Shown here: one piece after another, positions 1 to 18,014 of the stretch | How the letters are laid out: every line of letters begins with the position of its first letter | Position numbering within the stretch: the stretch's first letter is position 1 | Source of the DNA: a virus | Taxonomy: Duplodnaviria; Heunggongvirae; Uroviricota; Caudoviricetes | IMG/VR virus record: IMGVR_UViG_2851949629_000003 | Strand: one strand, 5' to 3' | Length of the DNA: 22,307 nucleotides | Translations under genes and position numbers: made by a program | Notes under the pieces: model-generated | Database searches by the model: none | The model's input: the letters and a program-made list of their open reading frames with translations, nothing else | What the model was told of the DNA's origin: nothing

Positions 1-411
1 ATGCCTGCCCCCGTCGTCCTGATCCTTGCGGCCGGGCGTGGAGAGCGCTTTCTCGCCTCCGGTGGAAATACCCATAAGTGTATCGGCTGGCGTCAGTCCC
101 CGGAGGTTGCGCCTTATCGCTGGCCATTTGAAGAAAACGGGAGAACTTTCGACCTTGCGATTGAACCGCAGATTACGACTAATGATCTGCGTCTGATGTT
201 GAGGCTGGCTCTTGCCGGCGGAGGAATAACAATTGCCACTCAGGAAACTTTCAGGCCATATATTGAAAGCGGTAAGCTTGTATCGCTGCTTGATGACTTT
301 CTTCCACAATTTCCGGGCTTCTATCTGTATTTCCCACAGCGTCGCAATATTGCACCAAAGCTCCGCGCCCTGATTGACTACGTCAAAGAATGGCGGCAGC
401 AATTGGCTTAA
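1..411 (+). CDS. LysR-family transcriptional regulator, C-terminal effector-binding part (5' end lies left of the window)
   Basis: Frame open from base 1 to TAA at 409-411. The tail (...GKLVSLLDDFLPQFPGFYLYFPQRRNIAPKLRALIDYVKEWRQQ) matches the conserved C-terminus of LysR-type regulators from memory. Probably chromosomal flank. Confidence 0.8.
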   Translation: MPAPVVLILAAGRGERFLASGGNTHKCIGWRQSPEVAPYRWPFEENGRTFDLAIEPQITTNDLRLMLRLALAGGGITIATQETFRPYIESGKLVSLLDDFLPQFPGFYLYFPQRRNIAPKLRALIDYVKEWRQQLA

Positions 412-886: not shown

Positions 887-1174
887 TTACTGTCTCTGGC
901 AATCTTTATCGCGATAACGCCTGAAGTACCCTCTCGCTTCCTCATCCATACCAAGAGCCGAATGAGTCCGCTTAACTGCCTGTCTTAAATCTCCGAATCT
1001 GTCTGTAGTTGCTGGTGGGCGTGCCGCCTTACGGATACATTCAGAGCGTCTGTTTGCTGCATGTTCACGTTCTTTATCGCCATCTGCCAGCATCATGACT
1101 TCTGCCCATCGTGCGGCAGCTCTCCGGTATAGCCCTTTTGACTCCAGTTCTTCAGCTTTCCTGTCCCTTATCAT
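887..1174 (-). CDS. PerC/Pch-family transcriptional activator-like protein (95 aa)
   Basis: ATG at 1174 with GAGAGG Shine-Dalgarno 5 nt upstream on the minus strand. The motif LESKGLYRRAAARWAEVM matches the PerC-family signature as I recall it. Confidence 0.65.
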   Translation of the reverse strand: MIRDRKAEELESKGLYRRAAARWAEVMMLADGDKEREHAANRRSECIRKAARPPATTDRFGDLRQAVKRTHSALGMDEEARGYFRRYRDKDCQRQ

Positions 1175-1203: not shown

Positions 1204-1336
1204 AAAAGGTGTTGGTTCAGTTGGTTCAGTTGGTTCAATTTGTAAAGATCGTTGTTTTTATTGTGTTTTTTCTGAAATATTGAACCAACATCAACTCATT
1301 TTGAACCAACACAGCCCAGCTCTGAACCAACAACAC
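1204..1336. repeat. Iteron cluster A: three tandem GTTGGTTCA units (1211-1237) then three inverted TGAACCAAC units (1281-1334); candidate origin/cis-replication element
   Basis: Read directly. Bases 1204-1248 are a perfect 45-bp reverse complement of 11242-11286, with further imperfect similarity out to about 1336. Confidence 0.75.
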
Positions 1337-1385
1337 AGCGATAGCTTTGTGATTGGTCCGTTATTTTCTGGCTGATATTTGAGCG

Positions 1386-1415
1386 TATAACAGTGTTATA
1401 CAGTGGTATACTGTA
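1386..1415 (+). promoter_or_regulatory. Operator-like overlapping palindromes in the promoter region of the RHH gene
   Basis: TATAACA-G-TGTTATA (1386-1400, 7-bp arms) overlaps TACAGT-ggtat-ACTGTA (1399-1415). Both contain -10-like hexamers (TATAAC, TATACT) about 20-45 bp upstream of the 1434 start. Confidence 0.35.
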
Positions 1416-1433
1416 TGGATATTACTCACTGAT

Positions 1434-1889
1434 ATGGTCTTTGCAATGAGCAAATCTAATCTGGTCGCGTTCCGCATCCCATCTGAATTGCAGGATGAGT
1501 TTAATCGGTCTGTTCTCGCTTCTGGAGGGGATAAAACCTCCTGGCTTGTTGATGCGATTCGCATGAAGCTGGGACAGCCGGAAAAGTCTATTGATTCACG
1601 AATGCTTGGGCTGGTGGAGCGCATGGAAAAAGCCGCTGCGTCGCTTATTGCCGGAAAGCCGAACATCCCACCAAAGCCATATAACGAAACGGCAGTTATA
1701 AAGATCATTGCCGATACCATCCGACAGGGATTTGATAATGGGCGCGTGATAGCTGAACGGATCAATGAAGCAGGCTATCAAACAAAAGCTGGTAAAGCGT
1801 GGGATAAAGATATTTACAGCGCGTGGAAGCGTCAGGGAAGCAATGCTGAAAAGTTAAAAGCGGTGATTGATTGTAAGGTCAGCGTATAA
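1434..1889 (+). CDS. Putative ribbon-helix-helix (Arc/Mnt/CopG-like) DNA-binding protein with C-terminal extension (151 aa; alternative start at 1446)
   Basis: N-terminal pattern VAFRIPSELQDEFNRSVLASGGDKTSWLVDAIRMKL fits a beta-strand/helix/helix RHH layout. Preceded by the palindromic operator. Family not confirmed by search. Confidence 0.55.
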   Translation: MVFAMSKSNLVAFRIPSELQDEFNRSVLASGGDKTSWLVDAIRMKLGQPEKSIDSRMLGLVERMEKAAASLIAGKPNIPPKPYNETAVIKIIADTIRQGFDNGRVIAERINEAGYQTKAGKAWDKDIYSAWKRQGSNAEKLKAVIDCKVSV

Positions 1890-1968
1890 ACATGAGTGCC
1901 CATTGGAAAACTGCTTGGGCCAATACCTTTATACACCAGCAGGTGGTGACGATGGGTGAGGATCAGGC

Positions 1969-2190
1969 ATGAAAGGCAGAACGCCACACATTGAACATCA
2001 AGCCAACCACTTCTCGGATGTTCGCAATGAGATGATTGCCATTCGCGGTGATATGCACGGCTTGGAGCGTCGAATTATTGATAAGATTGATGAAAATAGA
2101 GATAAGGCCAGTGAAAATCAAAAGTGGATCATCGGCCTGTTGATTTTATCAATGCTTATCCCGCTACTTATCGCATTGGTCACAAAATGA
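1969..2190 (+). CDS. Small membrane protein, XhlA-like (73 aa): N-terminal coiled-coil-like region and one C-terminal transmembrane helix
   Basis: ATG at 1969 with GGTGAGGA Shine-Dalgarno. C-terminus NQKWIIGLLILSMLIPLLIALV is a hydrophobic helix. Overall layout resembles the XhlA family as recalled. Confidence 0.5.
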   Translation: MKGRTPHIEHQANHFSDVRNEMIAIRGDMHGLERRIIDKIDENRDKASENQKWIIGLLILSMLIPLLIALVTK

Positions 2191-2218
2191 ATATCCAATG
2201 TGTATGCTGTCGATGCTA

Positions 2219-2597
2219 CGCGCGCGTACTTGTCGCAAAATATCAGACAAAAGCCAGATTCAGAACGTCGTGATAACCACCAGCACAACAGAGAGGTCAT
2301 GTAACGCGATTTATCACACCAGATACATGTGATTGGTGTACCCGCATAAAACATCGTCATAGCGCGTCCTGTGCGCATATACGCCGATAATCAACACATC
2401 ACCACCACTCTGTCTCGTGTAGAAAACAGTTTCATGGTATCCCCCGCCATCGTGTGCGTACTGGTCGGACGCAGTTGCAAAAAATTTTGCAACTGATACC
2501 CCTCGCGCGCGTACTGGTCACGAAATTGGTGTTTTGCTGTGGCAGTGATATCAGAAAAATCTTGCTGTTTCACATAAAGCGGATATGCGCGTACTGT
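2219..2597. repeat. Five dispersed copies of a GCGCGTACTGT-like motif in the gap between the XhlA-like gene and the membrane-protein gene
   Basis: CGCGCGCGTACT at 2219-2230 and 2504-2515; GCGTACTGGTC at 2456-2466 and 2509-2519 (identical 11-mers); GCGCGTACTGT at 2587-2597; GCGCGTCCTGT at 2362-2372. TACGCGCGCGTA (2218-2229) is a perfect palindrome. Confidence 0.4.
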
Positions 2598-2693
2598 AAC
2601 GGCCCCATCAACGGGGATCGGATTTGAAATCCCGACCCAAGCTATGTACCAAATGCCATGTCTTGGATATATGATGATTGCCATTCTAAACAA
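2391..2693 (-). CDS. Doubtful hypothetical ORF (100 aa from a TTG start; 97 aa from ATG at 2684)
   Basis: No convincing Shine-Dalgarno. Its start is only ~26 bp from the divergent 2711 start. The repeated DNA motif falls in three different reading frames of this ORF, which argues it is non-coding. Confidence 0.2.
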   Translation of the reverse strand: MFRMAIIIYPRHGIWYIAWVGISNPIPVDGAVTVRAYPLYVKQQDFSDITATAKHQFRDQYAREGYQLQNFLQLRPTSTHTMAGDTMKLFSTRDRVVVMC

Positions 2694-2710
2694 CGCTAAA
2701 GGGGGTTGGT

Positions 2711-3325
2711 GTGAGCAGAAAAGATACTAAAGAATTGCTAACTATCTGCATGGTGTACTTTTCAATTTATTTTTGTGCATACATGATAGTCCCAGATGAG
2801 TTTGAACATGGCAGTATTATTTATTCCATAACATTCTATTTTTTAGAGCTAACACCAATTTTGGCTATCCTTTTGGCAATACATATTTATTTTTCCTTAA
2901 AAAAAGAATCGACTAATTGGGGGAAGGTATGGAGAGACAGAGGATTTCTAACATCACCTAAAGATGATGCATATGAGAGTGATTTTTCTGACTTTATAAC
3001 AAACTACTACTCCAGCGAACAATTCAAAAATAGACTGTCTGATGTTTGGGAAACAGCAATGTATTCCATAGGGATTATATTATTGATACTTACTGGTATT
3101 GCTCAATATGTTTTTAACATTAACTTATCATTAAATCCTGAAAATTTAATATCGCCATTGATTTTTGGTGAGATATTGATCTTCTCATTCGGAATTTTCT
3201 TGAGTGTTGTTCTCTGCTCATTATGCAAACTACTGACTAACAGGTATCCAGGTGAAGCAAGGAGAGCAAGAAAGGCAAATCCATATTATCTTTTATTTCC
3301 TAATGGAGACAGCAGAGATATCTAA
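2711..3325 (+). CDS. AT-rich integral membrane protein with four predicted transmembrane helices (204 aa); function unknown, candidate exclusion/defence effector
   Basis: GTG at 2711 preceded by AAAGGGGG (2698-2705). Roughly one-third G+C by eye, against ~50% or more in the flanks. Four long hydrophobic segments separated by a charged loop. Convergent with the split gene ending at 3344. Confidence 0.7.
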   Translation: MSRKDTKELLTICMVYFSIYFCAYMIVPDEFEHGSIIYSITFYFLELTPILAILLAIHIYFSLKKESTNWGKVWRDRGFLTSPKDDAYESDFSDFITNYYSSEQFKNRLSDVWETAMYSIGIILLILTGIAQYVFNINLSLNPENLISPLIFGEILIFSFGIFLSVVLCSLCKLLTNRYPGEARRARKANPYYLLFPNGDSRDI

Positions 3326-3343
3326 GCCATCCATGGCTACCAG

Positions 3344-4522
3344 TTATTGAGCTTCTTTTTGTGATGCCTGTGCGACTCTGGTGAGCGATTGTGTGACCGT
3401 ACTGATCGCTCTGTCATATGCTGTGCTACCTTTTGGCGTATTTGCCAAACGTAACAAGGCATTTCGTATAACAGGGCTTTCGTATGCCTTCGCGGCTCCG
3501 CCTACGGCACCAGCAGCAGGAACAACAAACGCAGCCGTTTTTAGCATCCCCGCTAATACTGCTGCGTTTATGATGCCACCACCAACTAACAATCCATAAA
3601 GCTGCTGACCATTTAAGTTTTGAACGTTCGCTTTTGCCGCGTGTCTTGTATCGTTGAGGTATTTAATAACGCCGTCCAGTTCCTTTCCATGTACGCCTTT
3701 AAAGAAAGTTGCTGATTGCTTCCTGTTCCGGTGTAACGCATTAATAAACTTCTCAACACTGATATTTCCAGACGGATCAGTCGCCTTATCTACAGCATTC
3801 TGAACTATGGCTGCTCGTGCGTTTTGCCTACCATTGTCATCCAGAAGCCTGTAAAGCTGAGAACGTTCTGATGGGCTTTGGCTAAAAACGAGTTTTGTTA
3901 CATCCTCAGGCGTGGCCTTGCCGCTGGCTATTGCCTTTTGAACGCGCGTTCTTCCCATCATGTCATTGAATTTAGACCATGAGCGATCAACCCTTGCCAT
4001 ATTAATGGCTTCGTCTGCTCCAAGATTTTTGGCTACGGCTTTTTTCATATCCGCCGTATATGCCTTGTAGATAATATCGCTGGCTTTCTGGAGCGTATCT
4101 TTATCAACAGTGTCAGATGACGCCATAAACCGCTTTCGAAGATCGGTTCTGTTTTCCCTCGCCAGACGCAGGTCATTTGGTCCGCTGGTGATATCGTCTT
4201 TAAATTGCTGCAAGACTTTTACCGCGGCTCTATCCTGAGATTTACCCGGGCGGCTTAACACAGCAATCTGATTGTCGATAGCTTTTACCGTGTTTGAGAG
4301 ATCGACAGGGGTATCCCCCATAGCGTCAATTATGCGGTTATATCGCTTTCCTGCTGCCTCAATGAATTTTTGTTGCCCTTTAGTCGCAGATTCATAAAGC
4401 TGTTTATCAGAAATGCCACCCAGACCATCGCTAAATGTTCTGACTAAATTTTCTCGTGCTTGTTGTTGATTCAGCCGATTCTTACCGGTTCCAAAAAAAG
4501 GAACTCTTTCGCCTAATGTCTG
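3344..4522 (-). pseudogene. 3' portion (392 codons) of a ~701-codon Q/A-rich gene split by IS66 copy 1
   Basis: The track ORF 3344-4321 stays open upstream with no stop to the IS boundary at 4522/4523. It is in frame with 7063-7989 once the IS and one target-duplication copy are removed. Confidence 0.7.
4515..4522. repeat. Left 8-bp target-site duplication AATGTCTG of IS66 copy 1
   Basis: Identical to 7055-7062, immediately outside the element ends. Confidence 0.85.
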
Positions 4523-4552
4523 GTAAGCGTTAACGGAGTGCCGTATTGACGC

Positions 4553-6166
4553 TTATTTATTGGTGAGTACTACGTTCCATGGCAGGAGTTCGTCAACTCG
4601 GTTGGAAGGCCATTCCGGCAGTACGCTCAGGATATGGCGCAGATACGCTTCCGGATCGATACCGTTCAAACGGCAGGTGCCGATCAGCCCGTACAACAGT
4701 GCTCCACGCTCGCCGCCGTGATCGCTGCCAAAGAACATAAAGTTTTTCTTTCCGAGACAGACTGCACGAAGCGCTCTTTCCGCAGCATTATTATCCGCCT
4801 CCGCCAGACCGTCATCACTGTAATAACAGAGGACATCCCACTGATTCAGTACATAGCTGAACGCTTCGCCCAGTCTGGATTTTTTCGACAGCGTACCATT
4901 CTTCTCCACCATCCATTCATGCAGCGACGTCAGTAACACTTTGCTTCGCTGCTGCCTGACCGCCAGGCGTTCAGACACCGGCAACCCGCGTATTTCGTGC
5001 TCAATGGCGTACAGTTCACTGATTCGCTTCAGGGCTTCTTCTGCCGTCGCACTTTTGCTGCTGATGTATACATCGTGGATTTTTCGCCGGGCATGGGCCC
5101 AGCACGCAACTTCTGTCAGTGCACCACCTTCACGTTCTGCACTGAACAACCTGTCGTAACCTGTGAACGCATCCGCCTGCAGGATACCCCGGAAGGGGCG
5201 GAGGTGTTGCTCCGGGTGTTTCCCCTGCCGGTTCGGCGAGTACGCGAACCAGACCGCTGGAGGAGATGACGAACCCACATTGCGATCATCCCGGACATAC
5301 GTCCAGATACGCCCTGTTTTCGCCTTTTTCTGACCCGGTGCCAGTACCTTTACCGGTGTGTCATCAGTGTGAACCTTGCGGGTGTTCATTACATAACGGT
5401 ACAGGGCATCATTCACCGGTGTCATTAACTGGCAGCACGCGTCAACCCAGTTGGAGAGTAAGGCCCGGCTCAGTTCGACACCCTGGCGGGCAAAGATTTC
5501 ACTCTGACGATACAGTGGCAGATGTTCGCAGTATTTTCCCGTTAACACGCGGGCAAGTAATCCGGGGCCCGCGATACCACGCTCTATCGGGCGGGACGGC
5601 GCCGGTGCTTCAACAATACAGTCACATTTTGTACAGGCTTTTTTTACCCGTTCTGTGCGGATCACTTTCAGGGCACTGCTCACCAGTTCCAGCTGTTCAG
5701 CGCTGACTTCCCCCAGATAATCCAGCTCACCGCCACACTCCGGGCAACAGCTTTCTTCTGGCTCCAGGCGGTGTATTTCACGGGGAAGGTGTGCCGGTAA
5801 CGGACGACGATGGCGCGACTGTCGCAACTGGCGGGGAACCTGAGGATCGTCTTCCCGCCCACTGTAACGATCGCTGTCCTGTTCACGTTGTTTCAGCAGA
5901 GCCTCAGCCAGTTCAACTTCACGACGCAGTTTTTCAGAACGGGTACCGAACAGCATCCGGCGCAGTTTTTCTATCTGAGCCCGCAGATGTTCTATTTCCC
6001 GTTCATCTTCTTCGATCTTTTCTTCGGCACGTGTCAGTGCAGAGCGCAGGAAGGCTTCCGTCTCTTCAACCAGACTCAGTTGCTGGTCTTTCTGACGGAG
6101 GGCTTCAGCCTGCTCAGAGAGCAACCTTTCCAGCTCTGCGATGCGAATGAGGTATTTCTGACTCAT
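4553..6166 (-). CDS. tnpC: IS66-family transposase TnpC (537 aa)
   Basis: Long ORF with coiled-coil N-terminus and Cys-rich zinc-finger-like segment (CPECGG...CTKCDC), typical IS66 ORF3 layout. About 90% identical to the second copy. Confidence 0.9.
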   Translation of the reverse strand: MSQKYLIRIAELERLLSEQAEALRQKDQQLSLVEETEAFLRSALTRAEEKIEEDEREIEHLRAQIEKLRRMLFGTRSEKLRREVELAEALLKQREQDSDRYSGREDDPQVPRQLRQSRHRRPLPAHLPREIHRLEPEESCCPECGGELDYLGEVSAEQLELVSSALKVIRTERVKKACTKCDCIVEAPAPSRPIERGIAGPGLLARVLTGKYCEHLPLYRQSEIFARQGVELSRALLSNWVDACCQLMTPVNDALYRYVMNTRKVHTDDTPVKVLAPGQKKAKTGRIWTYVRDDRNVGSSSPPAVWFAYSPNRQGKHPEQHLRPFRGILQADAFTGYDRLFSAEREGGALTEVACWAHARRKIHDVYISSKSATAEEALKRISELYAIEHEIRGLPVSERLAVRQQRSKVLLTSLHEWMVEKNGTLSKKSRLGEAFSYVLNQWDVLCYYSDDGLAEADNNAAERALRAVCLGKKNFMFFGSDHGGERGALLYGLIGTCRLNGIDPEAYLRHILSVLPEWPSNRVDELLPWNVVLTNK

Positions 6167-6196
6167 GACCGTTTTTATAATGCGGTCAGGAGTTTT

Positions 6197-6547
6197 TTAC
6201 AACATTGTCAGTGAGTTACGGCTGGATGTTTTTGGCTGACGCCAGTCCAGCTTATCGAGGAGCATTGCCAGTTGCGAGCGGGTAATGGATACCTTGCCGT
6301 CACGTACCGCAGGCCAGATAAACTGGCCTTCCTCCAGGCGTTTGGTGAACAGGCACAGACCATCAGCATCAGCCCAAAGAATTTTGACGGTGTCACCCCG
6401 TCGGCCACGGAAGATAAACAGGTGACCGGAGAAGGGATTATCATTCAGCACATGTTGTACCTGTTCTCCCAGTCCGTTGAAGGATTTACGCATATCGGTA
6501 ACGCCGGCAACGAGCCAGATACGGGTACCTGATGGGAGTGAGATCAT
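6197..6547 (-). CDS. tnpB: IS66-family TnpB accessory protein (116 aa)
   Basis: Middle ORF of the IS66 triplet. Its start overlaps the tnpA stop (6544-6547). Confidence 0.85.
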   Translation of the reverse strand: MISLPSGTRIWLVAGVTDMRKSFNGLGEQVQHVLNDNPFSGHLFIFRGRRGDTVKILWADADGLCLFTKRLEEGQFIWPAVRDGKVSITRSQLAMLLDKLDWRQPKTSSRNSLTML

Positions 6548-6969
6548 CTTCCCCTCCCGGTCAGTTCACGGATCAACACTGTGAGCAGCTCTGGCGATGG
6601 ATTTTCCAGCGTCATGTTACCGTGACGGAATTCCACCTTGCAGGAACTGGCACTGACTCTGGTCTGAGTGGAAGTGGATAAAGACGGCGCAATGGCCGCC
6701 ACAGGTTCTTTCTGCTCATCCGGCGTTATTTCTACAGGTAATAATTCAACGCCAGTGTCAGAAGAGGTCGTTACCGGAAGACGCCGCGAAACACGCCCTT
6801 CGTTCTGCCAGAGCCTGAGCCATTTGAAAATAACATTATCATTGACGCCATTTTCACGTGCAATCTGTGCAACACAAGCTCCAGGTTGTGATGCCAGTTC
6901 CACCATACGAAGTTTGAATTCATTCGAATAGTTTTTACGAGGTTCTTTTCGCCAGTCCTGTAATTCCAT
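6544..6969 (-). CDS. tnpA: IS66-family TnpA (141 aa, helix-turn-helix)
   Basis: First ORF of the IS66 triplet, with a conserved N-terminal DNA-binding-like segment (FKLRMVELASQPGA...IFKWLRLWQ). Confidence 0.85.
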   Translation of the reverse strand: MELQDWRKEPRKNYSNEFKLRMVELASQPGACVAQIARENGVNDNVIFKWLRLWQNEGRVSRRLPVTTSSDTGVELLPVEITPDEQKEPVAAIAPSLSTSTQTRVSASSCKVEFRHGNMTLENPSPELLTVLIRELTGRGR

Positions 6970-7054
6970 ACTTAGATGTCCGTCTATATCAGATGGGCGT
7001 CTAAGTTACCAATTCTCGTCTGATGGCTACATACGGCGGTCAGTTTACGCTTAC

Positions 7055-7062
7055 AATGTCTG
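7055..7062. repeat. Right 8-bp target-site duplication AATGTCTG of IS66 copy 1
   Basis: Identical to 4515-4522. Confidence 0.85.
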
Positions 7063-7989
7063 AGCCTGACTCTGCATAAAGGTTTTATCTTTCAGCATGT
7101 CACTGGTCATTAACGGCAGATTTCTTTCCGATGCAAAGTCGACAGCAGCCTTTGCTTCAGGCGACATATCACCACGAACAGCCCTCGAAACCGCACTCGC
7201 TGTATTTTCCAGCCCCTTACCAATACCACCAATGCCAGCAGAAATTACCGTTTGTAACGGATCAATATCTTCTCCACCAGCGAGGCTGGTGGCTCCCTGT
7301 AGTGCTAAATCTGTAGCTGCTGATTTCCCTATGGCCCCCAGCACCGTTCCGGCCCTGCCCGCTGGTGTAAACGCCAGCGCATTAGCCAGAAACGATGCCA
7401 CGTCTTGCGGCGATAAACCCGGCTTGTTCAGAGCATAATCACCGGATGGCAGGGAAACGATAGTGTTACCCTTCTCATCCTGCCTTAATTTCGCTCCCAT
7501 GCTCTGAAGAATCTTTTCCTGAGATGCGTCAGAGCCGAAAAGTTGAGACCATCGAGTTTTTAGAGCATCCATGCTGAGTGAGGTTAACTCTGGGGCAAGG
7601 TCGACATTTTGCAGTCTCTCCATCTCTGGAGTCATTCGGCTTTCGCCTGTTATAGCATCGCGCATCGCAGCCCCAAGGCTGGCTCCCTGTTCTGCTGAAC
7701 GCTCAAGCCCCTCTCTTTGCTGAGTAGCTAACTTTGCATACCCTGACGCAAGAGAATTATCAGATGATGTATGTTGAATATTTTGAGTTGCTGATTGGGC
7801 TCGGTCTATTTCATTCGTTGATGGTAGTGGATAGGCAGCATAAAAAGCCTGCTTAGCCTGCTCTACACTTTCTCCGGCTTGCGGGGCAACGACTTCATTG
7901 AAGTATTGCTCCTGAGCCTGCGCTTTTTGTTCTGGTGCTAACGCCTGATACTGTGGAGAAGCGATAACATCTTTCCATGCTTTAGCCAT
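7055..7989 (-). pseudogene. 5' portion (native codons 7063-7989, 309 aa) of the IS-split ~701-codon gene
   Basis: ATG at 7987-7989 overlaps the upstream stop (TAATG). The apparent stop at 7051-7053 lies inside the IS terminus. Frame continues into 4522 when the IS is excised. Confidence 0.7.
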
Positions 7990-9410
7990 TAATCACCCCA
8001 TAGTGAAGAAAAGTTACTGCTGGCTGCTGGCTGTGATACCTGCTCAGATTGCGGCAATGTCTGCGACGAAGAAGAAGTTCCTCTGTCAACTGCTGAAATA
8101 ACCCGCAAAGCATCATAAGCTCGACCAGAAGCAGCTTTCAGCGAATTGAACTGGTTTTCCATCTTCCGGCGCTTGGTATCAATGGTTTTTGTGGAGTCGC
8201 CAGGCTGAGGGAAATACATTTGATAATATTTTGACATTTCAGCAGGTACGATAGCTGCCCCTGTTTCCTGACGGAGTATTGCCATTATTGCGTCATTAGC
8301 ATTAACAACGTATTGCTGCTCTGTTGGGCTGAGCGTTAAGTTAGCCAGCGTCCCATTACCCAAAGCATTATTAATGATCGCCACTCGCTGTGGGCTAAGC
8401 TGGTCTTTCAGTGTATCTATTGAATCAAGAGCATCCCTAACCCTGTATGCAAATCCAGCAGCTTTTTTAGCCCCTTCTGGCGACTTTTCCATGATCTTTT
8501 GGGCTGTTGGCAAAGCTATTGGACGAAACCCATCTCCAGATATTGGCTGGTTTAGTTTTCCCTGCTCTTCACTTCCGTCTGTGTAGTATTTTGTGACAGT
8601 GCCATCATCGTTTTCTCTAACACTCATTAATTTTTTGGCGTTTGTATTAATTCCAGCCGCTGCCGCAAATGCCGCCGCCCCCTCTGGATCCTCCTTTAAC
8701 ATTTGAGCGTACTGATTGTAATTCTGCATTGCTGCTGTTGGTGCATATGCTGACGTTAACGCATTTGCTCGGCTAATATCCTGCCCTCTCGCCTGAAGTG
8801 CTTCGCCAGCCTGATTGCTGCGGATTGTTTCTGCCAACTTGCCACGCTCAATATCCCGACCTTCCATTTGATCTTTGATATCGAAATACTTCTCATGACC
8901 GAGAGAAAACAGTGCCATACTACCAGCAAGCCGCTGGAATCCCTGTGGATCATTAACATGCATTTCGGCAACAGACTCAGGAGAAATTCCCAAGCGACGC
9001 ATTTCATCTTCGTTATCTGCTATGAATTTTCCAAATGCCCCAGTTCCGAGCGAAGATGCGATTTGAGCACTAGTCGCAAGATGACCAATAGAATTTCTCT
9101 GGTCGTCATCAATAAAGCCCATCCCTTTCTGAACGCTTTCAAATTCTTCTGGATACTCAGAAATAAGACTGCGCATTTTGTTTCTGTCTCCAGACTCAAA
9201 AGCCCCGGCATATGCTTTCTGAAACTCTGCTTTACGCTGTTGTTGACGTGCCTGCTGATTAATCTCAGCAACGCCTCTTAGCCCCTGTAGCGCCATTAAA
9301 CCTACGTTTGGCTGCTGCTGATACTGCACAGGCTGAGGAACGGAAGAACGAGGAGCATTATCATTTTGCGGTGCCATGCTAGGCAGCCCGCCAAGTTGCC
9401 ATGTCGCCAT
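7989..9410 (-). CDS. Q-rich low-complexity protein (473 aa); possible phage ejection/DNA-transfer-type protein
   Basis: Coupled to both neighbours by TAATG overlaps at 9410 and 7989. Q/A-rich, coiled-coil-like composition. Family assignment is inference. Confidence 0.75.
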   Translation of the reverse strand: MATWQLGGLPSMAPQNDNAPRSSVPQPVQYQQQPNVGLMALQGLRGVAEINQQARQQQRKAEFQKAYAGAFESGDRNKMRSLISEYPEEFESVQKGMGFIDDDQRNSIGHLATSAQIASSLGTGAFGKFIADNEDEMRRLGISPESVAEMHVNDPQGFQRLAGSMALFSLGHEKYFDIKDQMEGRDIERGKLAETIRSNQAGEALQARGQDISRANALTSAYAPTAAMQNYNQYAQMLKEDPEGAAAFAAAAGINTNAKKLMSVRENDDGTVTKYYTDGSEEQGKLNQPISGDGFRPIALPTAQKIMEKSPEGAKKAAGFAYRVRDALDSIDTLKDQLSPQRVAIINNALGNGTLANLTLSPTEQQYVVNANDAIMAILRQETGAAIVPAEMSKYYQMYFPQPGDSTKTIDTKRRKMENQFNSLKAASGRAYDALRVISAVDRGTSSSSQTLPQSEQVSQPAASSNFSSLWGD

Positions 9411-10087
9411 TAGAATCCAAGCCCCCCAACAAGACCAATAAGCCCACCACCAATAGCCCCGGCGACATTACCTATACCCGGAACAACGGAACCAAGTTGC
9501 GCACCCGCTAAAGCGCCTGATGCCGCCCCACCAATACCACGCGCAAGACTGGATGGCTGCTGCGCCTGACCTGCACGAATAGCGCCAAGCCCCTGCAAGA
9601 GTTGCCCGGTATTATTGGCGTAGTTTTGCCCTGCTGTTGCCTGCCCTGATGCCGCATTCATCCCGACATTTAGCAGGTTTCCATAATTTTGCATTTGCCC
9701 ACTGAGCCAATTGTTATAAAGCATGGGCGCAATGGAAGATAACTGGTTACTGGTAGCTGTTGAGCCAAGCCCCCCGGTAGCTTCTGCTGAGACAAGGTTC
9801 TGATAACGGGCCTGATCTGCCTGTGTTTTATATAAACCAGAACCAAAGAAATCATTCGCGGCTTTATTCTGCCCTTCCAGAGTCATCAGTCCTTGTAGTT
9901 GTTGTAAAGCAGGCAATCCGACTTCTGCATACGGCTTGAGATTATTCATCACCGTATTCCACTGCTCGCGCTGCAAATCAATTGCCTGCTGCTGGGCCTT
10001 CGCCTGAGCTTTAGAGGCACCACCATCACCGCCTTTTTCGTATACGGCACGATTGAGATGTTTATGAGCTATATGGGTAATTAACAT
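9410..10087 (-). CDS. Gly/Gln-rich protein with glycine-zipper-like hydrophobic C-terminus (225 aa); possible ejection-type protein
   Basis: Start overlaps the upstream stop by 7 nt (ATGTTAA). C-terminus GIGGAASGALAGAQLGSVVPGIGNVAGAIGGGLIGLVGGLGF. Confidence 0.75.
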   Translation of the reverse strand: MLITHIAHKHLNRAVYEKGGDGGASKAQAKAQQQAIDLQREQWNTVMNNLKPYAEVGLPALQQLQGLMTLEGQNKAANDFFGSGLYKTQADQARYQNLVSAEATGGLGSTATSNQLSSIAPMLYNNWLSGQMQNYGNLLNVGMNAASGQATAGQNYANNTGQLLQGLGAIRAGQAQQPSSLARGIGGAASGALAGAQLGSVVPGIGNVAGAIGGGLIGLVGGLGF

Positions 10088-10542
10088 TCGCTGAGTTCCT
10101 TATATTGTTGCCGTGTTAACTGATAAAGCGTTACGCCGACGGGTTTACCACATCTGATATATGCATCGGCCAGGTGACCAACACGGGTAGCGCCAAGCAA
10201 ACGGATAATTGCCCGTCCGTATTTCGTGGTGTCAGGAACCATGGTGATGCTGTTAAGGAATGGTGAGTTTTCGAGAAGCCATTTGCAGAACAATCGATGC
10301 CCTTGCAGTGCATATTCACCACGGAATCCGGGGTCGTACACCGCATGGCATTCAACAATGCTATGCCAGAAGTTACGCACTTCATGAACGCCTGTCAGCA
10401 CTAATCCTTCGTAGATGCCGAGATATACCGCATCAGGCTTGATGTAGTACGTGTGCCCCGGCTCAACAATATTTTCGGTATTGCCAGGCTCGTTAAGAAA
10501 GGCCTGTAATCGCACCGGGTTATCAATAAATTTTAGTTCCAT
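10081..10542 (-). CDS. Hypothetical protein (153 aa), first large gene of the cassette
   Basis: ATG at 10542 with weak GGATGG Shine-Dalgarno. Coupled to the downstream gene. Confidence 0.7.
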   Translation of the reverse strand: MELKFIDNPVRLQAFLNEPGNTENIVEPGHTYYIKPDAVYLGIYEGLVLTGVHEVRNFWHSIVECHAVYDPGFRGEYALQGHRLFCKWLLENSPFLNSITMVPDTTKYGRAIIRLLGATRVGHLADAYIRCGKPVGVTLYQLTRQQYKELSEC

Positions 10543-11118: not shown

Positions 11119-11160
11119 CACTCTCTGATGCCAGCCAGGTGTTGTGCGCATCAATTCAGT

Positions 11161-11286
11161 CACATTGTGTTGGTTCAAAATACCGTGTTGTTGGTTCAGT
11201 GTTGGTTCAATAAAAAGAATAAAATCATTATAAAACAATACTCTTTACAAATTGAACCAACTGAACCAACTGAACCAACACCTTTT
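11161..11286. repeat. Iteron cluster B: three GTTGGTTCA units (11169-11209) and three tandem TGAACCAAC units (11253-11279); inverted copy of cluster A, directly 3' of the primase gene
   Basis: Read directly. 11242-11286 is the exact reverse complement of 1204-1248. Confidence 0.75.
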
Positions 11287-11304
11287 CTACGCACATGAAG
11301 AAGC

Positions 11305-14064
11305 TCATTCTTCAGATGAGTTATAATCTCCTGGCTGGTAATTGAGTACATAAACGTTTATTTGTCGTCCCTGAATACGTGGTGATTTTCTTTGGTATCC
11401 ACGACCGCTGTTTGGTGGGGTTAGCATCCCGGCTTTTTTCAACACTTCAGCAAACTGTTTTGCGTTGAAACCACATGCGATCTCCTTTTCAAATGTGGCC
11501 GGGAATGTGTAGAAAATCATTGGGCTTTCGTCATGTTCTCCACGCTGACGGTATCCGGCTAAATCTTTGATGGGCAAATCTGCCGGGCTGTATGGAAATG
11601 GTGCAAAACGGCTAAGCCCATAGGCATTAAGAAATGCCTCCGTTTGTTCAATAATCTGCTGATGTTCTTTGTTACCTGTGCCGAACTCGCGCAACCATGC
11701 GTTATAGCTGTGCTGTATCGCATCACGGCATGTCTGAGCATCCCAGCCTGTTACAACCTCGCCTAACAGCAATGCGGCCTCCAGAATGGCAAATCGCGCG
11801 GCTACACGGTGAACCTGCTCACCATAATCGGATGGGATCAGACTTCTCCATCTGCTTTCGCAGTCACGAACAGTTTTAATTGCCTGTTGCTGGTGGTCTG
11901 CCAGCCATTTAATCCACTCACGCCCGGCTGCGCCGTGGTGATGCTGGTAAGCGTCTTTCAGTGCGTCTGCGTGCTGTTTTCCGTTCTGGTAATCGTGAAA
12001 GCGTACTGCTTTACTCAACGGAATATTCAGCAGTCGCACCAGTTGCCCGGCTTTGGTTTTTCGCCCGGAAGTAGCGATAAATGTTTCTAAATCCATTTCT
12101 CCGGTGCTGATTGCCACTGTACGCCAGCGTTTTAGATCCCGGTTTCCACCATCTTTAGCGCCTTGCAGTTTCCCTACACCGTTAAATAACGCATAGGCAG
12201 ACTGTGAAACGCTGACAGGATCTGCGCCCTGACCAACTTCATCAAGCGGCATTAGTCCGTCATTGTGGGCGGCAGCTTCATTTGCCAGCCCCAGCGCGGT
12301 TCCGTACCACGTCAGCCGCAGTAAATCAGGGTTGCCGTATAAGCTGCTCGCCACGTTTGCCGTGGTGGTCTTACCTGCGCTCGACTGCTCATAGAAATGA
12401 ATGCCGAACCCGTCAGCGCCCACCAGCCCAATCAATGGCGCTGCCAGTGCTGCGCCGATCCCGGTCATCATTGAATAGTTACCAAAGGCCAGACGCGCCA
12501 CGCTATCACGCCAGCTTTTCGCGCTCCCTGAGATAGTATATCCGGCTGCGGCTGAGCTTCTCCCGCTGAACAGCACAGGATTTTCAGGTGTTCCGATGAT
12601 TTCCCCATCAGGCATGATGTACGCTCCGCATTGCCAGCCAGTGGCATGAGCAACACGCCACAATTCACGAGAGCCACTGCGTTGTAGCCAGTCTGCCAGT
12701 ATTGCTCTGAGGCTGCTTTTGGTCGTGACATTTACCCCACCAGCTTTAAGTGTGCGCCATCCTTCACGTTCACCAATATCAGCCAGTGGAATGGCAGCGG
12801 TTGTCGGCGTTTCAGAACCAAACGACAGCCAGCGAAGAATGAGATACTGGTCTTTATCGTCTCTGCCAGTACCGATAACGCTTAACGGAGAACATAACCA
12901 GCTTTCGTTATTGATGATTTCTCCACTCTGGCTGTCAGCTCTCGGAGATACCCAATAAATACCATCCTCGCGGCTTTCTATTCTTGGTTTCAGTGGGTCG
13001 GTATCCATAACCTTAAAATCGCTTCCTTCAATGGTCTGTGGCTCCTGTTTCACGCCATTACCCTGTGGTTGGTACATTGATTTATTGAACGCTTCTGTAG
13101 CGCATTTAATGCCGTGTTTTTGGTGGTAATCATTCCAGTCTGCTTTGTGATCTGTCGGGGGTAATGCCACCCATCCAGAAACAGATAAAGCTGCTTTTTC
13201 TGCTGCTATTCTCCCCGTGTTTTGTCTTCCTTCGCTGTGGTCGTTATCCGCAGCAATGATGATTTGTGCTGAAGGAAATTTATCCCGCAGTACCTGGGCG
13301 ACATATAACAGGTTCCCGGCATCAATCGCCGCCACTGTCAGCGCCTCTGGACGAATTAAATGGGCAGATAATGCCGTTGCCAGCCCTTCTGCGATTAAGA
13401 TGCTCTGTGTTGTTTCTGGTGCGTTTATGGCGTGATATGCCCCTCGCTTTGCTGAACCTGTCAGGAGTCTTTTTTCACCATGTGAGGTAATAGTCTGTGC
13501 TGCTGTTACTGCGCCGGATTTATCCACCAGCGCCAGCAACAGAGATCCATCGGGCAACACGGGGAATGTAAAATCACCTACCCCTTTCGCAACCAGATAA
13601 TCAGATTTGCCGTTTACAGCCTTTCTGCGCATGTCATCAAACTGACGGGAAAACGTATCCCGTCTTTGTTGTTCGTCCTTCTCTGCCCTTTTCAGGCGCT
13701 CCTGTTCGCGTCGCTGGCGCTCGGTTTCCAGTTGTTCCCGTTTCTGGCTGGTGGCTTCTGGTGTTTCCGTTGTCCGGTAATCAATACCCAGAACATCAGC
13801 GGCAAGAAGCGCCGCCTCTGTTGTGTCGCAGTTATTTACGCGTTTAATTAAATCCAGCCCATCACCAGCGCCGCACTGATTACAGATGAAGCTACCGCGC
13901 CCGTTGTCATCGAACCGGAATCGATCTTTACCCCCACATGCAGGGCAGGGAGCATGACGGCGTGGAGAGTCAGGGACATTTATGTTCAGGCAGCCCAGCA
14001 CATGAGGCCAGTTGTTTTCAGACGCACTGATAACCTGACGGATAAGATCAATGTTTCGCATCAC
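11305..14064 (-). CDS. Primase-helicase (P4 alpha-like architecture: zinc ribbon + TOPRIM + P-loop NTPase), 919 aa
   Basis: Zinc ribbon CPACGG...CNQCG near the N-terminus, TOPRIM-like acidic motif IIIAADNDH, P-loop-like SAGKTTT. GTG at 14064 or ATG at 14061. Iterons lie immediately downstream. Confidence 0.85.
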   Translation of the reverse strand: MMRNIDLIRQVISASENNWPHVLGCLNINVPDSPRRHAPCPACGGKDRFRFDDNGRGSFICNQCGAGDGLDLIKRVNNCDTTEAALLAADVLGIDYRTTETPEATSQKREQLETERQRREQERLKRAEKDEQQRRDTFSRQFDDMRRKAVNGKSDYLVAKGVGDFTFPVLPDGSLLLALVDKSGAVTAAQTITSHGEKRLLTGSAKRGAYHAINAPETTQSILIAEGLATALSAHLIRPEALTVAAIDAGNLLYVAQVLRDKFPSAQIIIAADNDHSEGRQNTGRIAAEKAALSVSGWVALPPTDHKADWNDYHQKHGIKCATEAFNKSMYQPQGNGVKQEPQTIEGSDFKVMDTDPLKPRIESREDGIYWVSPRADSQSGEIINNESWLCSPLSVIGTGRDDKDQYLILRWLSFGSETPTTAAIPLADIGEREGWRTLKAGGVNVTTKSSLRAILADWLQRSGSRELWRVAHATGWQCGAYIMPDGEIIGTPENPVLFSGRSSAAAGYTISGSAKSWRDSVARLAFGNYSMMTGIGAALAAPLIGLVGADGFGIHFYEQSSAGKTTTANVASSLYGNPDLLRLTWYGTALGLANEAAAHNDGLMPLDEVGQGADPVSVSQSAYALFNGVGKLQGAKDGGNRDLKRWRTVAISTGEMDLETFIATSGRKTKAGQLVRLLNIPLSKAVRFHDYQNGKQHADALKDAYQHHHGAAGREWIKWLADHQQQAIKTVRDCESRWRSLIPSDYGEQVHRVAARFAILEAALLLGEVVTGWDAQTCRDAIQHSYNAWLREFGTGNKEHQQIIEQTEAFLNAYGLSRFAPFPYSPADLPIKDLAGYRQRGEHDESPMIFYTFPATFEKEIACGFNAKQFAEVLKKAGMLTPPNSGRGYQRKSPRIQGRQINVYVLNYQPGDYNSSEE

Positions 14065-16031: not shown

Positions 16032-17091
16032 TGGTTGCCCCCGTTTTGCATGGCATTTGTCCACCTTCCAGCAGGAAATGAACGTCACGAACGGCGAGAT
16101 CCAATATCGCGAGTAACGCCTTCAGTTTTTCGTCTCGTGAGGGAGAGTTGCTCACCAGAATGTCATTAATCACTTCTGTCAGTGTGATGATCTGGCTTGT
16201 GCGTTCGAGGGGATCCATATGCACATCGTAGGTTTTAATCATGTGCCACCTCCATGCGGATACGACCAGCAAAAAAGCAGACGTGATCGCGCACCAGAGA
16301 ACGGCGAGCATCGCGTTCAGACTCGGCAGCAATATGATGAATTTTGGCGGTAATTGTCGGGCAATCGCGGCGAACTGCGGCGATAATCCAGATAAATTGC
16401 GGTTTTTGGGTAGGGGTAGTAGCCAGCATGTGGCAGCCTCCTTCAGATAGCAGGTTACGCTACCACCGGAAACGCCAATTTCGCTGGTGGTAGCCCAGAC
16501 AGGGTTGGCGTAACCGGCTCTGAAGGATACCGGCGCTTCCGAAGAAGCCCCCGCCTGAGCCACCATTGATTGACAAAGGCGCTGGATTATACACCAACGC
16601 CCAAAAAATGGGTGAGTCAGACCTACGACATAAAAAAAGACGCTCGGCGCGTCATATGTCGCCTTCAGAATTTTCAGGACGCCAATCCCGGCACCCGTTT
16701 TATGAGGTGCCTTATAACCATAAACCGTGTTGCCGCATAACGGCAAGCTCTTTTTTATGGACTCCGAAAACTCGCTATTGGAAGCACCAGATGCACAGTA
16801 CATCGCGCTCATTTCGTTAACGTCACGCGCGTGGACGAATGTTTTTGTGGAGTCACTACACGAGCGGAAGACATCATCTACGACCAGAAATTCTCTGGCG
16901 CAGCCGCTGACCTTCTCAATGCTAATATCATCGCCCGAGATTTCTGGTATGGTTAAGGCATCCGTTCCGACCACCAGCAAATGATAAACTTTGCTTGTAT
17001 CTGCTGTATTAATGCCTGACTTTGCTGTCATATTGCTGTATTTTGGCGACATACCAGCCAGTGAAAATATCTTCTTCTGGGCGGTTAGCAT
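16024..17091 (-). CDS. Hypothetical protein (355 aa), unrecognised; C-terminal half contains hydrophobic stretches
   Basis: ATG at 17091 with GGAGG Shine-Dalgarno. Coupled to both neighbours. No recognised motif. Confidence 0.55.
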
Positions 17092-17984: not shown

Positions 17985-18014
17985 GTAAGCGTCAACGGAG
18001 CACCGTATTGACGC

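What the first reader, a model, noticed from the sequence alone, without database searches (positions are those of the whole stretch)
1380..2190. RHH regulator with palindromic operator followed by an XhlA-like small membrane protein
A 151-aa protein with an RHH-like N-terminus is preceded by two overlapping palindromes (1386-1415) and followed by a 73-aa protein with a coiled-coil-like region and one C-terminal membrane helix. A small membrane protein under tight repressor control looks like a lysis, toxin or exclusion module. If the P22 analogy holds, it may be an immunity-region (mnt/arc-like) remnant.
Basis: inference. Interest (0 to 1): 0.5.

Follow-up and report, generated by a model that had tools for sequence, protein, structure and literature searches.

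The report
Self-regulating satellite repressor plus swappable membrane-protein gene
The first gene encodes a probably self-repressing DNA-binding protein that is a conserved end gene of a family of phage-parasitic islands in enteric bacteria, and the small membrane protein after it is a swappable cargo gene shared with P22-like prophages, not its dedicated target.

Summary
Both ORFs, both palindromes and the C-terminal membrane helix are present, though the regulator probably starts at 1446 (147 aa, not 151).

The window is an E. coli phage-satellite island of the Gram-negative PICI / P4-like kind, cut by two IS66 copies. The 147-aa protein belongs to an unnamed Enterobacterales family with an N-terminal ribbon-helix-helix (RHH) and a nearly invariant C-terminal recombinase-like HTH domain.

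In 46 loci from more than 20 genera, an extended -10 promoter overlapped by two 10-bp-spaced repeats precedes the gene. The repeat type (GTATAAC/GTTATAC or GTCTTAC x2) matches the RHH beta-strand type (SNL[VI]AFR or S[LI]SVTFR) in 46 of 46 loci. The site occurs once per element, so autoregulation is the best reading.

The 73-aa protein is one long helix with a C-terminal anchor and is distantly XhlA-like, below the Pfam threshold. It is not a conserved partner. It lies in a swappable cassette (1845-2209) that holds an Abi gene in a sister E. coli element. Close relatives lie downstream of mnt in E. coli P22-like prophages.

The P22 analogy is therefore right for synteny and for the cargo's origin. 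It is wrong for the regulator's identity and for "tight control of a lysis or toxin gene". Ordinary to moderately interesting.

The parts
1385..1416 (+). Operator. It overlaps the -35/spacer/-10 region of the regulator's promoter.
   Evidence: One copy per element, at a fixed position. The arms are conserved and the spacer varies across genera. The site type matches the beta-strand type of the protein.
1404..1412 (+). Extended -10 promoter element TGgTATACT with no -35 consensus. It lies 33 nt upstream of the ATG at 1446.
   Evidence: Read directly from the sequence. TGnTA(T/A)A(A/C)T is conserved at the same place in nearly all 46 loci, weakened in a few such as Serratia and Buttiauxella izardii. 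The sigma-70 consensus scan finds nothing because the -35 element is missing. No transcript data.
1446..1889 (+). Gene for a 147-aa two-domain DNA-binding protein. Residues ~5-45 form the RHH, 49-68 a linker helix, and ~75-143 a recombinase-like HTH domain.
1845..2209 (+). Swappable cargo cassette. It comprises the last 15 codons of the regulator gene, a 79-nt spacer and the 73-aa gene. A sister E. coli element has 1.4 kb carrying an Abi-family gene here.
   Evidence: Searches give the breakpoints 1844/1845 and 2209/2210. E. coli 042 also resumes homology at 2210.
1969..2190 (+). Gene for a 73-aa tail-anchored, all-helical membrane protein, distantly XhlA-like. A GAGGA ribosome-binding site lies at 1956-1960.
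2711..3325 (+). SieA-like (superinfection exclusion) multi-pass membrane protein of 204 aa. Co-oriented neighbouring cargo, convergent with the gp16-like ejection gene.
   Evidence: phrog_7745 at 3.5e-4. BLASTP to P22 SieA gives 7e-8, including the shared RYPGEA motif.
1211..1331 (.). Iteron array: 3 direct GTTGGTTCA at 9-bp spacing plus 3 inverted TGAACCAAC at 21-bp spacing. It lies between perC and the regulator's promoter. This is context, not the regulator's operator.
   Evidence: A twin array lies at 11169-11279, just after the primase stop codon.
887..1174 (-). PerC-family gene, divergent from the regulator gene. This neighbour varies between genera.
   Evidence: Pfam PerC at 2.6e-33. 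Neighbours in other genera are AlpA, DUF1233 or others.

Best explanation
The window carries an integrative phage satellite of the Gram-negative PICI / P4-like kind. At the end far from the integrase, pointing inward, is a core gene for a 147-aa protein with two DNA-binding-type domains.

1. Its N-terminal RHH domain probably dimerises and binds two or three 10-bp-spaced subsites. These cover the -35/spacer/-10 region of its own -35-less, extended -10 promoter, so the protein represses its own synthesis (negative autoregulation).

2. Its nearly invariant C-terminal recombinase-like HTH domain carries the protein's real, still unknown, task. That task is not binding the adjacent iterons.

3. 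Just downstream lies a cargo slot that turns over by cassette exchange. In this element it holds a 73-aa tail-anchored, XhlA-like membrane protein gene. That gene is shared with the mnt-side immI region of E. coli P22-like prophages. A SieA-like exclusion gene follows it.

4. The 73-aa gene has a ribosome-binding site but no recognisable promoter or upstream terminator. It is therefore most likely read through from the autoregulated promoter at a low, steady level in the integrated state. It would be a lysogen-expressed accessory gene, possibly for exclusion or defence, rather than a lysis or toxin gene held off by a repressor.

Shown here: the gene models, domain assignment by distant homology, conservation and single copy of the operator, the match between operator type and strand type, the cassette boundaries, and the shared origin with P22-like prophages. 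Inferred: actual binding, repression, co-transcription, and the function of the 73-aa protein.
For: Element type:
- int, AlpA-type HTH, AntA/Bro, Ash and a Toprim-DUF927 primase all point one way, followed by captured P22 gp7/gp20/gp16 genes.
- C4 and isrK RNAs are present.
- This matches the four-zone layout described in PMC10111431.

RHH domain:
- hhalign to Mnt aligns strand, helix A, the G-x-[ST] turn and helix B in register.
- A PDB profile search lists CopG (0.16), Mnt (0.22), a CopG-family RHH (0.34) and VapB26 (0.56), all over residues 5-48.
- Distant full-length relatives hit TacA1 (1.1e-5, above the cut-off), RHH_1 and NikA-like.
- AF2 places helices at 13-25 and 30-41.

C-terminal domain: pLDDT above 90. 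Pfam Recombinase and HTH_62 are hit by relatives, down to 2.5e-11.

Operator and promoter:
- 25 of 25 type-A loci pair GTATAAC-N3-GTTATAC with SNL[VI]AFR.
- 21 of 21 type-B loci pair GTCTTAC x2 with S[LI]SVTFR.
- The differences include positions 6 and 8, the alternate, DNA-facing strand positions when aligned to Arc and Mnt.
- The site occurs once per locus, 45-62 nt before the start codon.

Cargo status:
- 371 versus 23 clusters. The 73-aa gene is absent from 49 other loci. Downstream content varies.
- Abi replaces the cassette in strain E70, with breakpoints at 1844/1845 and 2209/2210.
- 81% nt identity over window 1931-2188 with P22-like prophages, where the gene follows mnt and orf123.

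No terminator lies between the two genes.
Against: - No Pfam, NCBIfam or PADLOC model hits the window's 147-aa protein directly. Every RHH match in the PDB is individually non-significant. The AF2 monomer models the RHH part at low confidence.
- The strand/operator match can be explained by a single ancestral switch. Type-A proteins of Enterobacteriaceae are closer to type B outside the strand than to Morganellaceae type A. It therefore counts as one coordinated change, not 46 independent ones.
- Type A reads as an inverted repeat and type B as a direct repeat, which needs the assumption that each subsite is bound by one symmetric dimer.
- Co-transcription is inferred only from the absence of promoter-like and terminator-like signals.
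- Across the family, cargo next to the gene lies on the opposite strand more often than on the same strand. The promoter is therefore not generally a cargo driver.
- Nothing tested here shows what the 73-aa protein does.
Confidence: 0.6

Rival explanations
1. Repressor-guarded lysis, toxin or exclusion module. The RHH protein exists to keep the small membrane protein off, and derepression releases a lytic or toxic activity.
For: The genes are co-oriented and 79 nt apart with no terminator between them. The small protein resembles XhlA, a membrane protein needed together with the holin XhlB and the endolysin XlyA for PBSX lysis (PMC5589764). There is a weak PHROG holin hit at 0.014.
Against: The pair is not conserved and the cassette is exchangeable with Abi. 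No holin or endolysin lies nearby. In phages, relatives of this gene sit downstream of mnt or among tail genes, not in lysis cassettes. An autorepressed promoter gives steady low expression, not an off state.
Confidence: 0.1
2. Degenerate P22 immI region. The RHH gene is a diverged mnt captured together with sieA and the ejection genes from a P22-like helper.
For: The gene order and orientation match P22 16 | sieA-orf59a-mnt. Mnt is among the weak PDB matches. The adjacent 73-aa and SieA-like genes do have P22-like relatives.
Against: The same RHH-HTH gene, with the same promoter and operator, ends satellites whose captured genes are not P22-like. Klebsiella elements carry TMP_3, Erwinia elements carry E217_gp41, and some Serratia elements carry none. 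DNA homology with P22-like prophages starts only at 1931, after the RHH gene. The protein lacks Mnt's C-terminal coiled coil and has an HTH domain instead. tblastn against 50,697 phage records found no match.
Confidence: 0.05
3. The repeats are bound by another factor, such as the neighbouring PerC/AlpA-type regulator, a helper-phage activator or the primase. They would act as an activator site for a -35-less promoter, switching the gene on during helper infection.
For: The promoter lacks a -35 element and the site lies where class II activators bind. A replication iteron array lies only about 50 bp upstream.
Against: The upstream neighbour differs between genera while the site persists. The site type changes together with the RHH strand residues. 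The iterons are a different sequence and are absent in Morganellaceae loci that keep the operator. The extended -10 TG motif makes an activator unnecessary.
Confidence: 0.15
4. Type II toxin-antitoxin pair: an RHH antitoxin followed by a membrane toxin.
For: RHH N-terminal domains with an operator over the promoter are typical of antitoxins. Distant relatives hit TacA1, HicB-like and VapB models weakly.
Against: The pairing is not conserved. The 79-nt gap and the cassette boundary inside the 3' end of the RHH gene argue against a coupled unit. The C-terminal part is a folded, invariant HTH-like domain, not a toxin-wrapping tail. There are no PADLOC or TA-family hits.
Confidence: 0.03

Closest known systems
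P22 Mnt repressor and its operon (mnt-orf59a, then sieA) in the immI region
   Same: Both are RHH repressor genes whose operator overlaps promoter elements. In both, a small ORF and a sieA gene follow, convergent with ejection gene 16. Relatives of the 73-aa gene occupy the post-mnt position in E. coli P22-like prophages.
   Different: There is no significant sequence homology (hhalign probability 9%). The C-terminal domain is a recombinase-like HTH rather than a tetramerisation coiled coil. There is no divergent arc-ant operon. The gene belongs to satellites, not phages.
Autoregulated RHH repressors binding tandem subsites (CopG of pMV158, Arc, MetJ, omega, and antitoxins such as TacA, VapB and FitA)
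   Same: The strand-helix-helix pattern, the G-x-[ST] turn, repeated 10-bp-spaced subsites over the gene's own promoter, and weak profile matches.
   Different: No curated model reaches threshold on this protein. It carries an extra folded HTH-like domain that is more conserved than the RHH itself.
XhlA of Bacillus prophage PBSX (Pfam PF10779)
   Same: Size, an N-terminal helical region plus one C-terminal membrane helix, and XhlA as the top Pfam hit for relatives with E down to 8e-7. NCBI names some relatives 'hemolysin XhlA family protein'.
   Different: Scores are 21-30 bits against a gathering cut-off of 34.7, and the window protein itself has no hit. It is not next to a holin or endolysin. 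It lies in lysogeny-side or tail-region accessory-gene positions of Gram-negative prophages and in a satellite.
Gram-negative PICIs and P4-like satellites and their accessory or defence hotspots
   Same: Integration, Bro, replication and late zones with captured helper late genes (PMC10111431). C4/isrK RNAs are present. Paired iteron arrays resemble P4 ori/crr (the comparison with P4 is from my own knowledge). The variable slot holds Abi, PemK, SieA-like and similar genes.
   Different: I found no description of the inward-facing RHH-HTH end gene in the one paper I read on these elements, PMC10111431. Two searches for literature on satellites carrying phage ejection-protein genes also turned up nothing relevant. 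The captured genes here are podovirus ejection proteins rather than capsid genes.

Membership tests
Ribbon-helix-helix (CopG/Arc/MetJ) superfamily | An N-terminal beta-strand with alternating polar and hydrophobic residues, then helix A, a G-x-[STN] turn and helix B, within about 45 residues | tested here: met
   LVAFRIPSELQDEFNRSVLASGGDKTSWLVDAIRMKL aligns in register with Mnt, CopG, VapB26 and Arc. AF2 places helices at 13-25 and 30-41.
Ribbon-helix-helix (CopG/Arc/MetJ) superfamily | A statistically significant match to a curated RHH model or to a solved RHH protein | tested here: inconclusive
   The window protein has no Pfam hit at E<=1. PDB matches lie at E 0.16-0.56. Distant full-length relatives do better: P0222 hits TacA1 at 25.8 bits, above the cut-off of 21. 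RHH_1 is hit below cut-off by 4 of 12 members.
Ribbon-helix-helix (CopG/Arc/MetJ) superfamily | An intertwined dimer whose two strands form the DNA-reading ribbon | not testable with these tools
   Only monomer prediction was available. The N-terminal 47 residues have pLDDT 42-61, as would be expected for an obligate dimer (this expectation is my inference).
Ribbon-helix-helix (CopG/Arc/MetJ) superfamily | Binds repeated operator subsites through strand residues | tested here: inconclusive
   Operator type matches strand type in 46 of 46 loci, but this is compatible with a single evolutionary switch. No binding experiment.
P22 immI Mnt/Arc repressors | Sequence homology to Mnt or Arc | tested here: not met
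   hhalign gives probability 9% to Mnt and 6% to Arc. No Pfam Arc hit. tblastn against phage records finds nothing.
P22 immI Mnt/Arc repressors | Divergent arc-ant (antirepressor) operon controlled from the shared operator region | tested here: not met
   The divergent gene is PerC, with an iteron array in between. The AntA-like gene lies about 16 kb away in the Bro zone.
P22 immI Mnt/Arc repressors | Position: gene 16 | sieA <- small ORF <- RHH gene | tested here: met
   Searches show the same order and orientations.
XhlA (Pfam PF10779) | Score at or above the Pfam gathering threshold of 34.7 bits | tested here: not met
   The window protein has no hit at E<=10. Relatives score 16-30 bits, best E 7.8e-7. 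A precomputed 'weak' PF10779 flag and an NCBI name exist for relatives at 48-51% identity.
XhlA (Pfam PF10779) | A protein of about 70-100 aa with an N-terminal helical or coiled region and a single C-terminal membrane helix | tested here: met
   Hydrophobic segment at 53-71. AF2 predicts a single helix over 6-72.
XhlA (Pfam PF10779) | Encoded in a lysis cassette with a holin and an endolysin (xhlA-xhlB-xlyA) | tested here: not met
   No holin or endolysin lies in the element. Relatives lie after mnt or among tail genes. The PBSX role is taken from PMC5589764.
Type II toxin-antitoxin operon | Conserved, tightly linked antitoxin-toxin gene pair | tested here: not met
   The partner is absent in 49 loci of other species and is replaced by Abi in E. 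coli E70.
Gram-negative PICI / P4-like satellite (context of the finding) | int, an AlpA-type regulator and a primase co-oriented, in a small island at a chromosomal att site | tested here: met
   The same element lies between yicC and dinD in UMNK88 and next to paoD in Res13-Lact-EA06-22, the strain whose sequence is 100% identical to the window over 1150-2400.
Gram-negative PICI / P4-like satellite (context of the finding) | P4-type immunity RNA (C4/isrK) and a late zone with captured helper genes | tested here: met
   Rfam C4 scores 79.9 bits and isrK 67.8 bits. P22_gp7, Inj_translocase and a gp16-like gene are present. The definition is taken from PMC10111431.
Gram-negative PICI / P4-like satellite (context of the finding) | Helper-phage-dependent induction and packaging | not testable with these tools
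   Needs experiments. This copy is also interrupted by two IS66 elements.

The most novel reading that the evidence does not exclude
The 147-aa protein may be a satellite-specific two-headed factor. Its RHH would only set its own dose. Its invariant C-terminal domain would engage a target that is conserved across all Enterobacterales. That domain is recombinase/AsiA-like, with about 35 residues identical from Escherichia to Providencia. The target could be a host protein such as sigma-70 region 4 (the gene's own promoter is -35-independent), a replication factor, or a universal helper-phage component. Through that target the satellite would reprogram transcription, replication or interference in the lysogen. 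In parallel, the 73-aa XhlA-like protein could be a new membrane-anchored superinfection-exclusion factor that moves as a cassette between P22-like immI regions and satellite defence hotspots.
Probability: 0.12. Interest if true: 0.65.

Novelty: new member of a known kind. Interest (0 to 1): 0.35.

Why it matters
It gives a name and a testable mechanism to a "hypothetical protein" found in many Enterobacterales (at least 371 clusters at 90% identity). The protein marks the distal end of a widespread class of phage satellites.

It offers a natural pair of matched operator and strand variants for studying RHH specificity.

It defines a precise cargo-exchange slot (1845-2209) where Abi, toxin, SieA-like and XhlA-like genes alternate. 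That slot is a place to look for new anti-phage genes.

It also shows direct gene traffic between the lysogeny-side immI region of P22-like phages and satellites that have captured P22-type ejection proteins.

None of this overturns current understanding. The regulatory logic is textbook RHH autoregulation.

Tried and rejected
- Direct Pfam, NCBIfam and PADLOC scans of both proteins gave nothing useful. PHROGs gave only unknown-function families and a weak holin hit.
- Megablast and tblastn of the regulator against 50,697 phage records found no match.
- The sigma-70 consensus scan found no promoter, because the promoter has no -35 element. The only terminator-like site is on the opposite strand inside the gene.
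- P22 orf59a, in the equivalent position, is not related to the 73-aa protein. The orf123 next to mnt in E. coli P22-like prophages is a zinc-finger-type protein, not the source of the C-terminal domain.
- I considered that the C-terminal domain binds the neighbouring TGAACCAAC iterons. I rejected this because the Morganellaceae loci keep an identical domain core and lack those iterons upstream.
- I looked for extra operator copies that would define a regulon. None exist within 3 mismatches.
- Literature searches for satellites carrying ejection proteins found nothing specific.
- The 1361-1765 minus-strand ORF (134 aa, TTG start) overlapping the gene is treated as spurious.
Full report
**1. 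What is there**

The window is E. coli chromosome. Positions 1150-2400 are 100% identical to strain Res13-Lact-EA06-22 and occur in 557 of 5,426 complete genomes.

The ORFs at 1434-1889 (151 aa) and 1969-2190 (73 aa) exist. RefSeq and all homologs start the first protein at MSKS, position 1446, giving 147 aa.

The two palindromes are real: 1385-1401 (perfect 8+1+8) and 1398-1416 (perfect 7+5+7). This is more than chance gives: 3 such repeats against 0.12 in shuffles, p = 0.003.

The 73-aa protein has one hydrophobic stretch at residues 53-71, followed only by TK. AlphaFold2 models it as a single helix over 6-72 with pLDDT 81.

**2. Genomic setting**

The genes lie at one end of a roughly 16-kb integrative element. 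In order, it carries:
- a tyrosine integrase and an AlpA-type HTH;
- AntA/Bro, DUF4222 and Ash;
- a Zn-ribbon/Toprim/DUF927 primase;
- P22-type ejection proteins (DUF2824, gp7, gp20/Inj_translocase, gp16-like);
- a SieA-like gene, the 73-aa gene, the 147-aa gene and PerC.

The same element sits at different chromosomal sites in different strains. In this window two IS66 copies interrupt it.

Rfam finds a C4 antisense RNA and isrK at 16483-16710. This is the four-zone layout of Gram-negative PICIs and P4-like satellites, including a late zone that captures helper late genes (PMC10111431). Immunity in such elements is RNA-based, so the RHH protein is unlikely to be the master repressor.

**3. 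The 147-aa protein**

It belongs to a family of at least 371 clusters at 90% identity, all from Enterobacterales where an organism is named, about 143 aa long. Annotations read "hypothetical", "prophage protein" or, once, "Arc-like DNA binding domain protein". An exhaustive HMMER search of 1.84 billion representatives finds only 85 relatives, so the family is compact.

No curated model hits the window protein. Several weak lines nevertheless agree on an N-terminal RHH:
- hhalign puts residues 6-50 in register with Mnt 7-51.
- A PDB profile search lists CopG, Mnt, another CopG-family protein and VapB26, all over residues 5-48, at E 0.16-0.56.
- Distant full-length relatives hit TacA1 (above its cut-off), RHH_1 and NikA-like at their N-termini.
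- AF2 places helices at 13-25 and 30-41, at the low confidence I would expect for a monomer of an obligate dimer.

The C-terminal 70 residues are modelled at pLDDT above 90 as a small helical HTH-like domain. Relatives hit Pfam Recombinase and HTH_62 ("recombinase-like HTH"), down to 2.5e-11. Structure searches give only generic HTH matches. The core DNGR[IV]IAER[IL]NEAGYQTK[AG]GKAWDKDIYSAWKR is essentially invariant from Escherichia to Providencia. It is more conserved than the RHH.

**4. Operator and promoter**

I read the upstream DNA in 46 loci from more than 20 genera. Every locus has the same block ending about 30-35 nt before the start codon: two 10-bp-spaced repeats, then TGn and a -10 hexamer. 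That is an extended -10 promoter with no -35 consensus, which explains why the consensus scan found nothing.

There are two types:
- Type A: GTATAAC-N3-GTTATAC. The arms are fixed and the spacer varies. It occurs in Escherichia, Klebsiella, Serratia, Providencia, Morganella, Photorhabdus and others.
- Type B: GTCTTAC-N3-GTCTTAC. It occurs in Erwinia, Pantoea, Tatumella, Rosenbergiella and others.

The type matches the predicted beta-strand without exception. Type A pairs with S-N-L-[VI]-A-F-R in 25 of 25 loci. Type B pairs with S-[LI]-S-V-T-F-R in 21 of 21 loci. The differences fall at positions 5, 6 and 8. When aligned to Arc and Mnt, positions 6 and 8 are the alternate, DNA-facing positions. 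That assignment is my inference from known RHH-DNA complexes.

One caveat applies. Outside the strand, the Enterobacteriaceae type-A proteins are closer to type B than to the Morganellaceae type-A proteins. One switch on the type-B branch therefore explains the pattern. It is one coordinated change plus deep conservation, not many independent events.

The site occurs exactly once per element, even allowing three mismatches. It is therefore an autoregulatory site, not part of a regulon. In the E. coli/Klebsiella/Serratia subgroup, a third related subsite (GGTATAC) covers the -10 hexamer and creates the second palindrome.

**5. The 73-aa protein**

A single-sequence search finds only 23 clusters, all from E. 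coli where the source names an organism. It is absent from the 49 loci of other species that carry the regulator.

A profile search extends the family to 175 proteins in Klebsiella, Serratia, Citrobacter, Yersinia and others. Many carry a precomputed PF10779 (XhlA) flag and the NCBI name "hemolysin XhlA family protein". My own scans give XhlA as top hit for 8 of 10 members. The scores are only 16-30 bits against a cut-off of 34.7, and the window protein has no hit. The window protein has a 4-residue deletion and a 7-residue insertion relative to the family.

So "XhlA-like" is fair as architecture and distant homology, but formal membership is not met.

**6. Cargo status and origin of the 73-aa gene**

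The space after the regulator gene varies across the family. It holds a PemK toxin, Abi-like proteins, lipoproteins, membrane proteins or a conserved convergent 62-aa gene.

Within E. coli, strain E70 is 99% identical to the window at 1150-1844 and at 2210-3400. Between those points it carries 1.4 kb with an Abi-family gene on the opposite strand. E. coli 042 also resumes homology at 2210. The cassette is therefore 1845-2209.

A 77-aa relative (82% identity) lies in genuine E. coli P22-like prophages. The order there is tailspike <- ant <- arc | mnt-like -> orf123 -> XhlA-like -> small membrane ORF | <- gp16 <- gp20 <- gp7. DNA identity between satellite and prophage is 81% and confined to window 1931-2188. 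That span is the gene plus its ribosome-binding site, with no shared promoter.

P22 itself has the unrelated orf59a in that position. The 204-aa neighbour is a true SieA homolog.

**7. Mechanism**

Most likely the RHH domain binds the repeats and represses its own extended -10 promoter. The 73-aa gene, and perhaps the SieA-like gene, are read through at a low steady level in the integrated state. The prophage arrangement is analogous, with the same gene following mnt. Neither a promoter nor a terminator is detectable between the two genes.

The function of the invariant C-terminal domain is open. It is not binding of the nearby TGAACCAAC iterons. Those iterons form a pair of arrays, at 1211-1331 and 11169-11279, that looks like P4 ori/crr. 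They are missing upstream of the gene in Morganellaceae loci that keep the same domain.

A lysis role for the 73-aa protein has no contextual support. An exclusion or defence role is suggested only by its neighbours and by what replaces it (SieA-like, Abi).

**8. Verdict**

It is partly wrong: the regulator is not an Mnt/Arc remnant, the two genes are not a dedicated repressor-effector module, and there is no evidence for lysis or toxin activity.

This is a new, uncharacterised member of a well-known regulatory kind, sitting next to a cargo hotspot of a phage satellite.

Noticed in passing
window 1211-1331 and 11169-11279: There are two mirror-image iteron arrays, each with 3+3 copies of TGAACCAAC/GTTGGTTCA. 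One lies between perC and the RHH gene. The other lies immediately after the primase stop codon at 11305. I counted 12 exact copies and 20 matches within one mismatch, against 5.1 such matches expected by chance. This looks like the ori/crr pair of satellite P4 and is conserved in many genera. Morganellaceae loci lack these iterons.
   Followed up: partly
window 16483-16570 (-) and 16633-16710 (-): Rfam finds a C4 antisense RNA (79.9 bits) and isrK (67.8 bits) in the Bro zone, next to the Ash-family gene. This indicates P4-type RNA immunity in the element.
   Followed up: no
window 7051-10542 (-) and 3344-4321 (-): The satellite carries a block of P22-type DNA-ejection genes: DUF2824, gp7, gp20/Inj_translocase and a gp16-like gene. 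The gp16-like gene appears to be split by an IS66 insertion. Other members of the same satellite family carry a tape-measure gene (TMP_3) or E217_gp41 instead. Why a satellite keeps ejection proteins is unexplained.
   Followed up: partly
window ~4480-7040 and ~17950-20500: There are two IS66-family copies, each with ORFs of 537, 116 and 141/145 aa, inside the element. This copy of the satellite is therefore probably defective.
   Followed up: no
window 2711-3325 (+): A 204-aa multi-pass membrane protein is homologous to P22 SieA (BLASTP 7e-8, shared RYPGEA motif). In sister E. coli elements this position holds ImmA/IrrE or other genes.
   Followed up: partly
L003 10440-10631, L006 10511-10699, L007 ~11145-11333 and many other loci: A conserved convergent gene of about 62 aa ends in ...ERHRQRMSAPAYQWKKPAPRR. 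It is usually followed by a conserved gene of about 209 aa (MREQTRVYTSALPRINL...). In many genera it lies just downstream of the RHH gene. It is missing from that position in the E. coli element.
   Followed up: no
L002 19290-19311 and 35558-35578 (UMNK88): A doubled motif, TTATGTACAC x2 at 12-bp spacing, occurs near both ends of the element. These are candidate att arm or core sites. The motif is not present in the part of the window I read (380-900), where the element sits at a different chromosomal site.
   Followed up: no
L071 (E. coli 042) 2901-3386: In some E. coli elements the RHH gene is itself replaced by a 45-aa ORF and a 61-aa HTH regulator, while perC and the region from window 2210 onward are kept. 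The end regulator is therefore also exchangeable.
   Followed up: no
L062 7001-9416 (Klebsiella prophage): An XhlA-like gene lies in the tail-gene region close to a second immI-like set: a 119-aa Arc-domain protein, a 56-aa Arc and a Bro-N/P22_AR_C antirepressor. This repeats the association of XhlA-like genes with RHH/antirepressor modules.
   Followed up: no
window 1-411 (+): The ORF at the left edge is a LysR-type substrate-binding-domain remnant. RefSeq marks it as a pseudogene lacking its N-terminus, next to paoD. The satellite or an earlier event seems to have truncated it.
   Followed up: no
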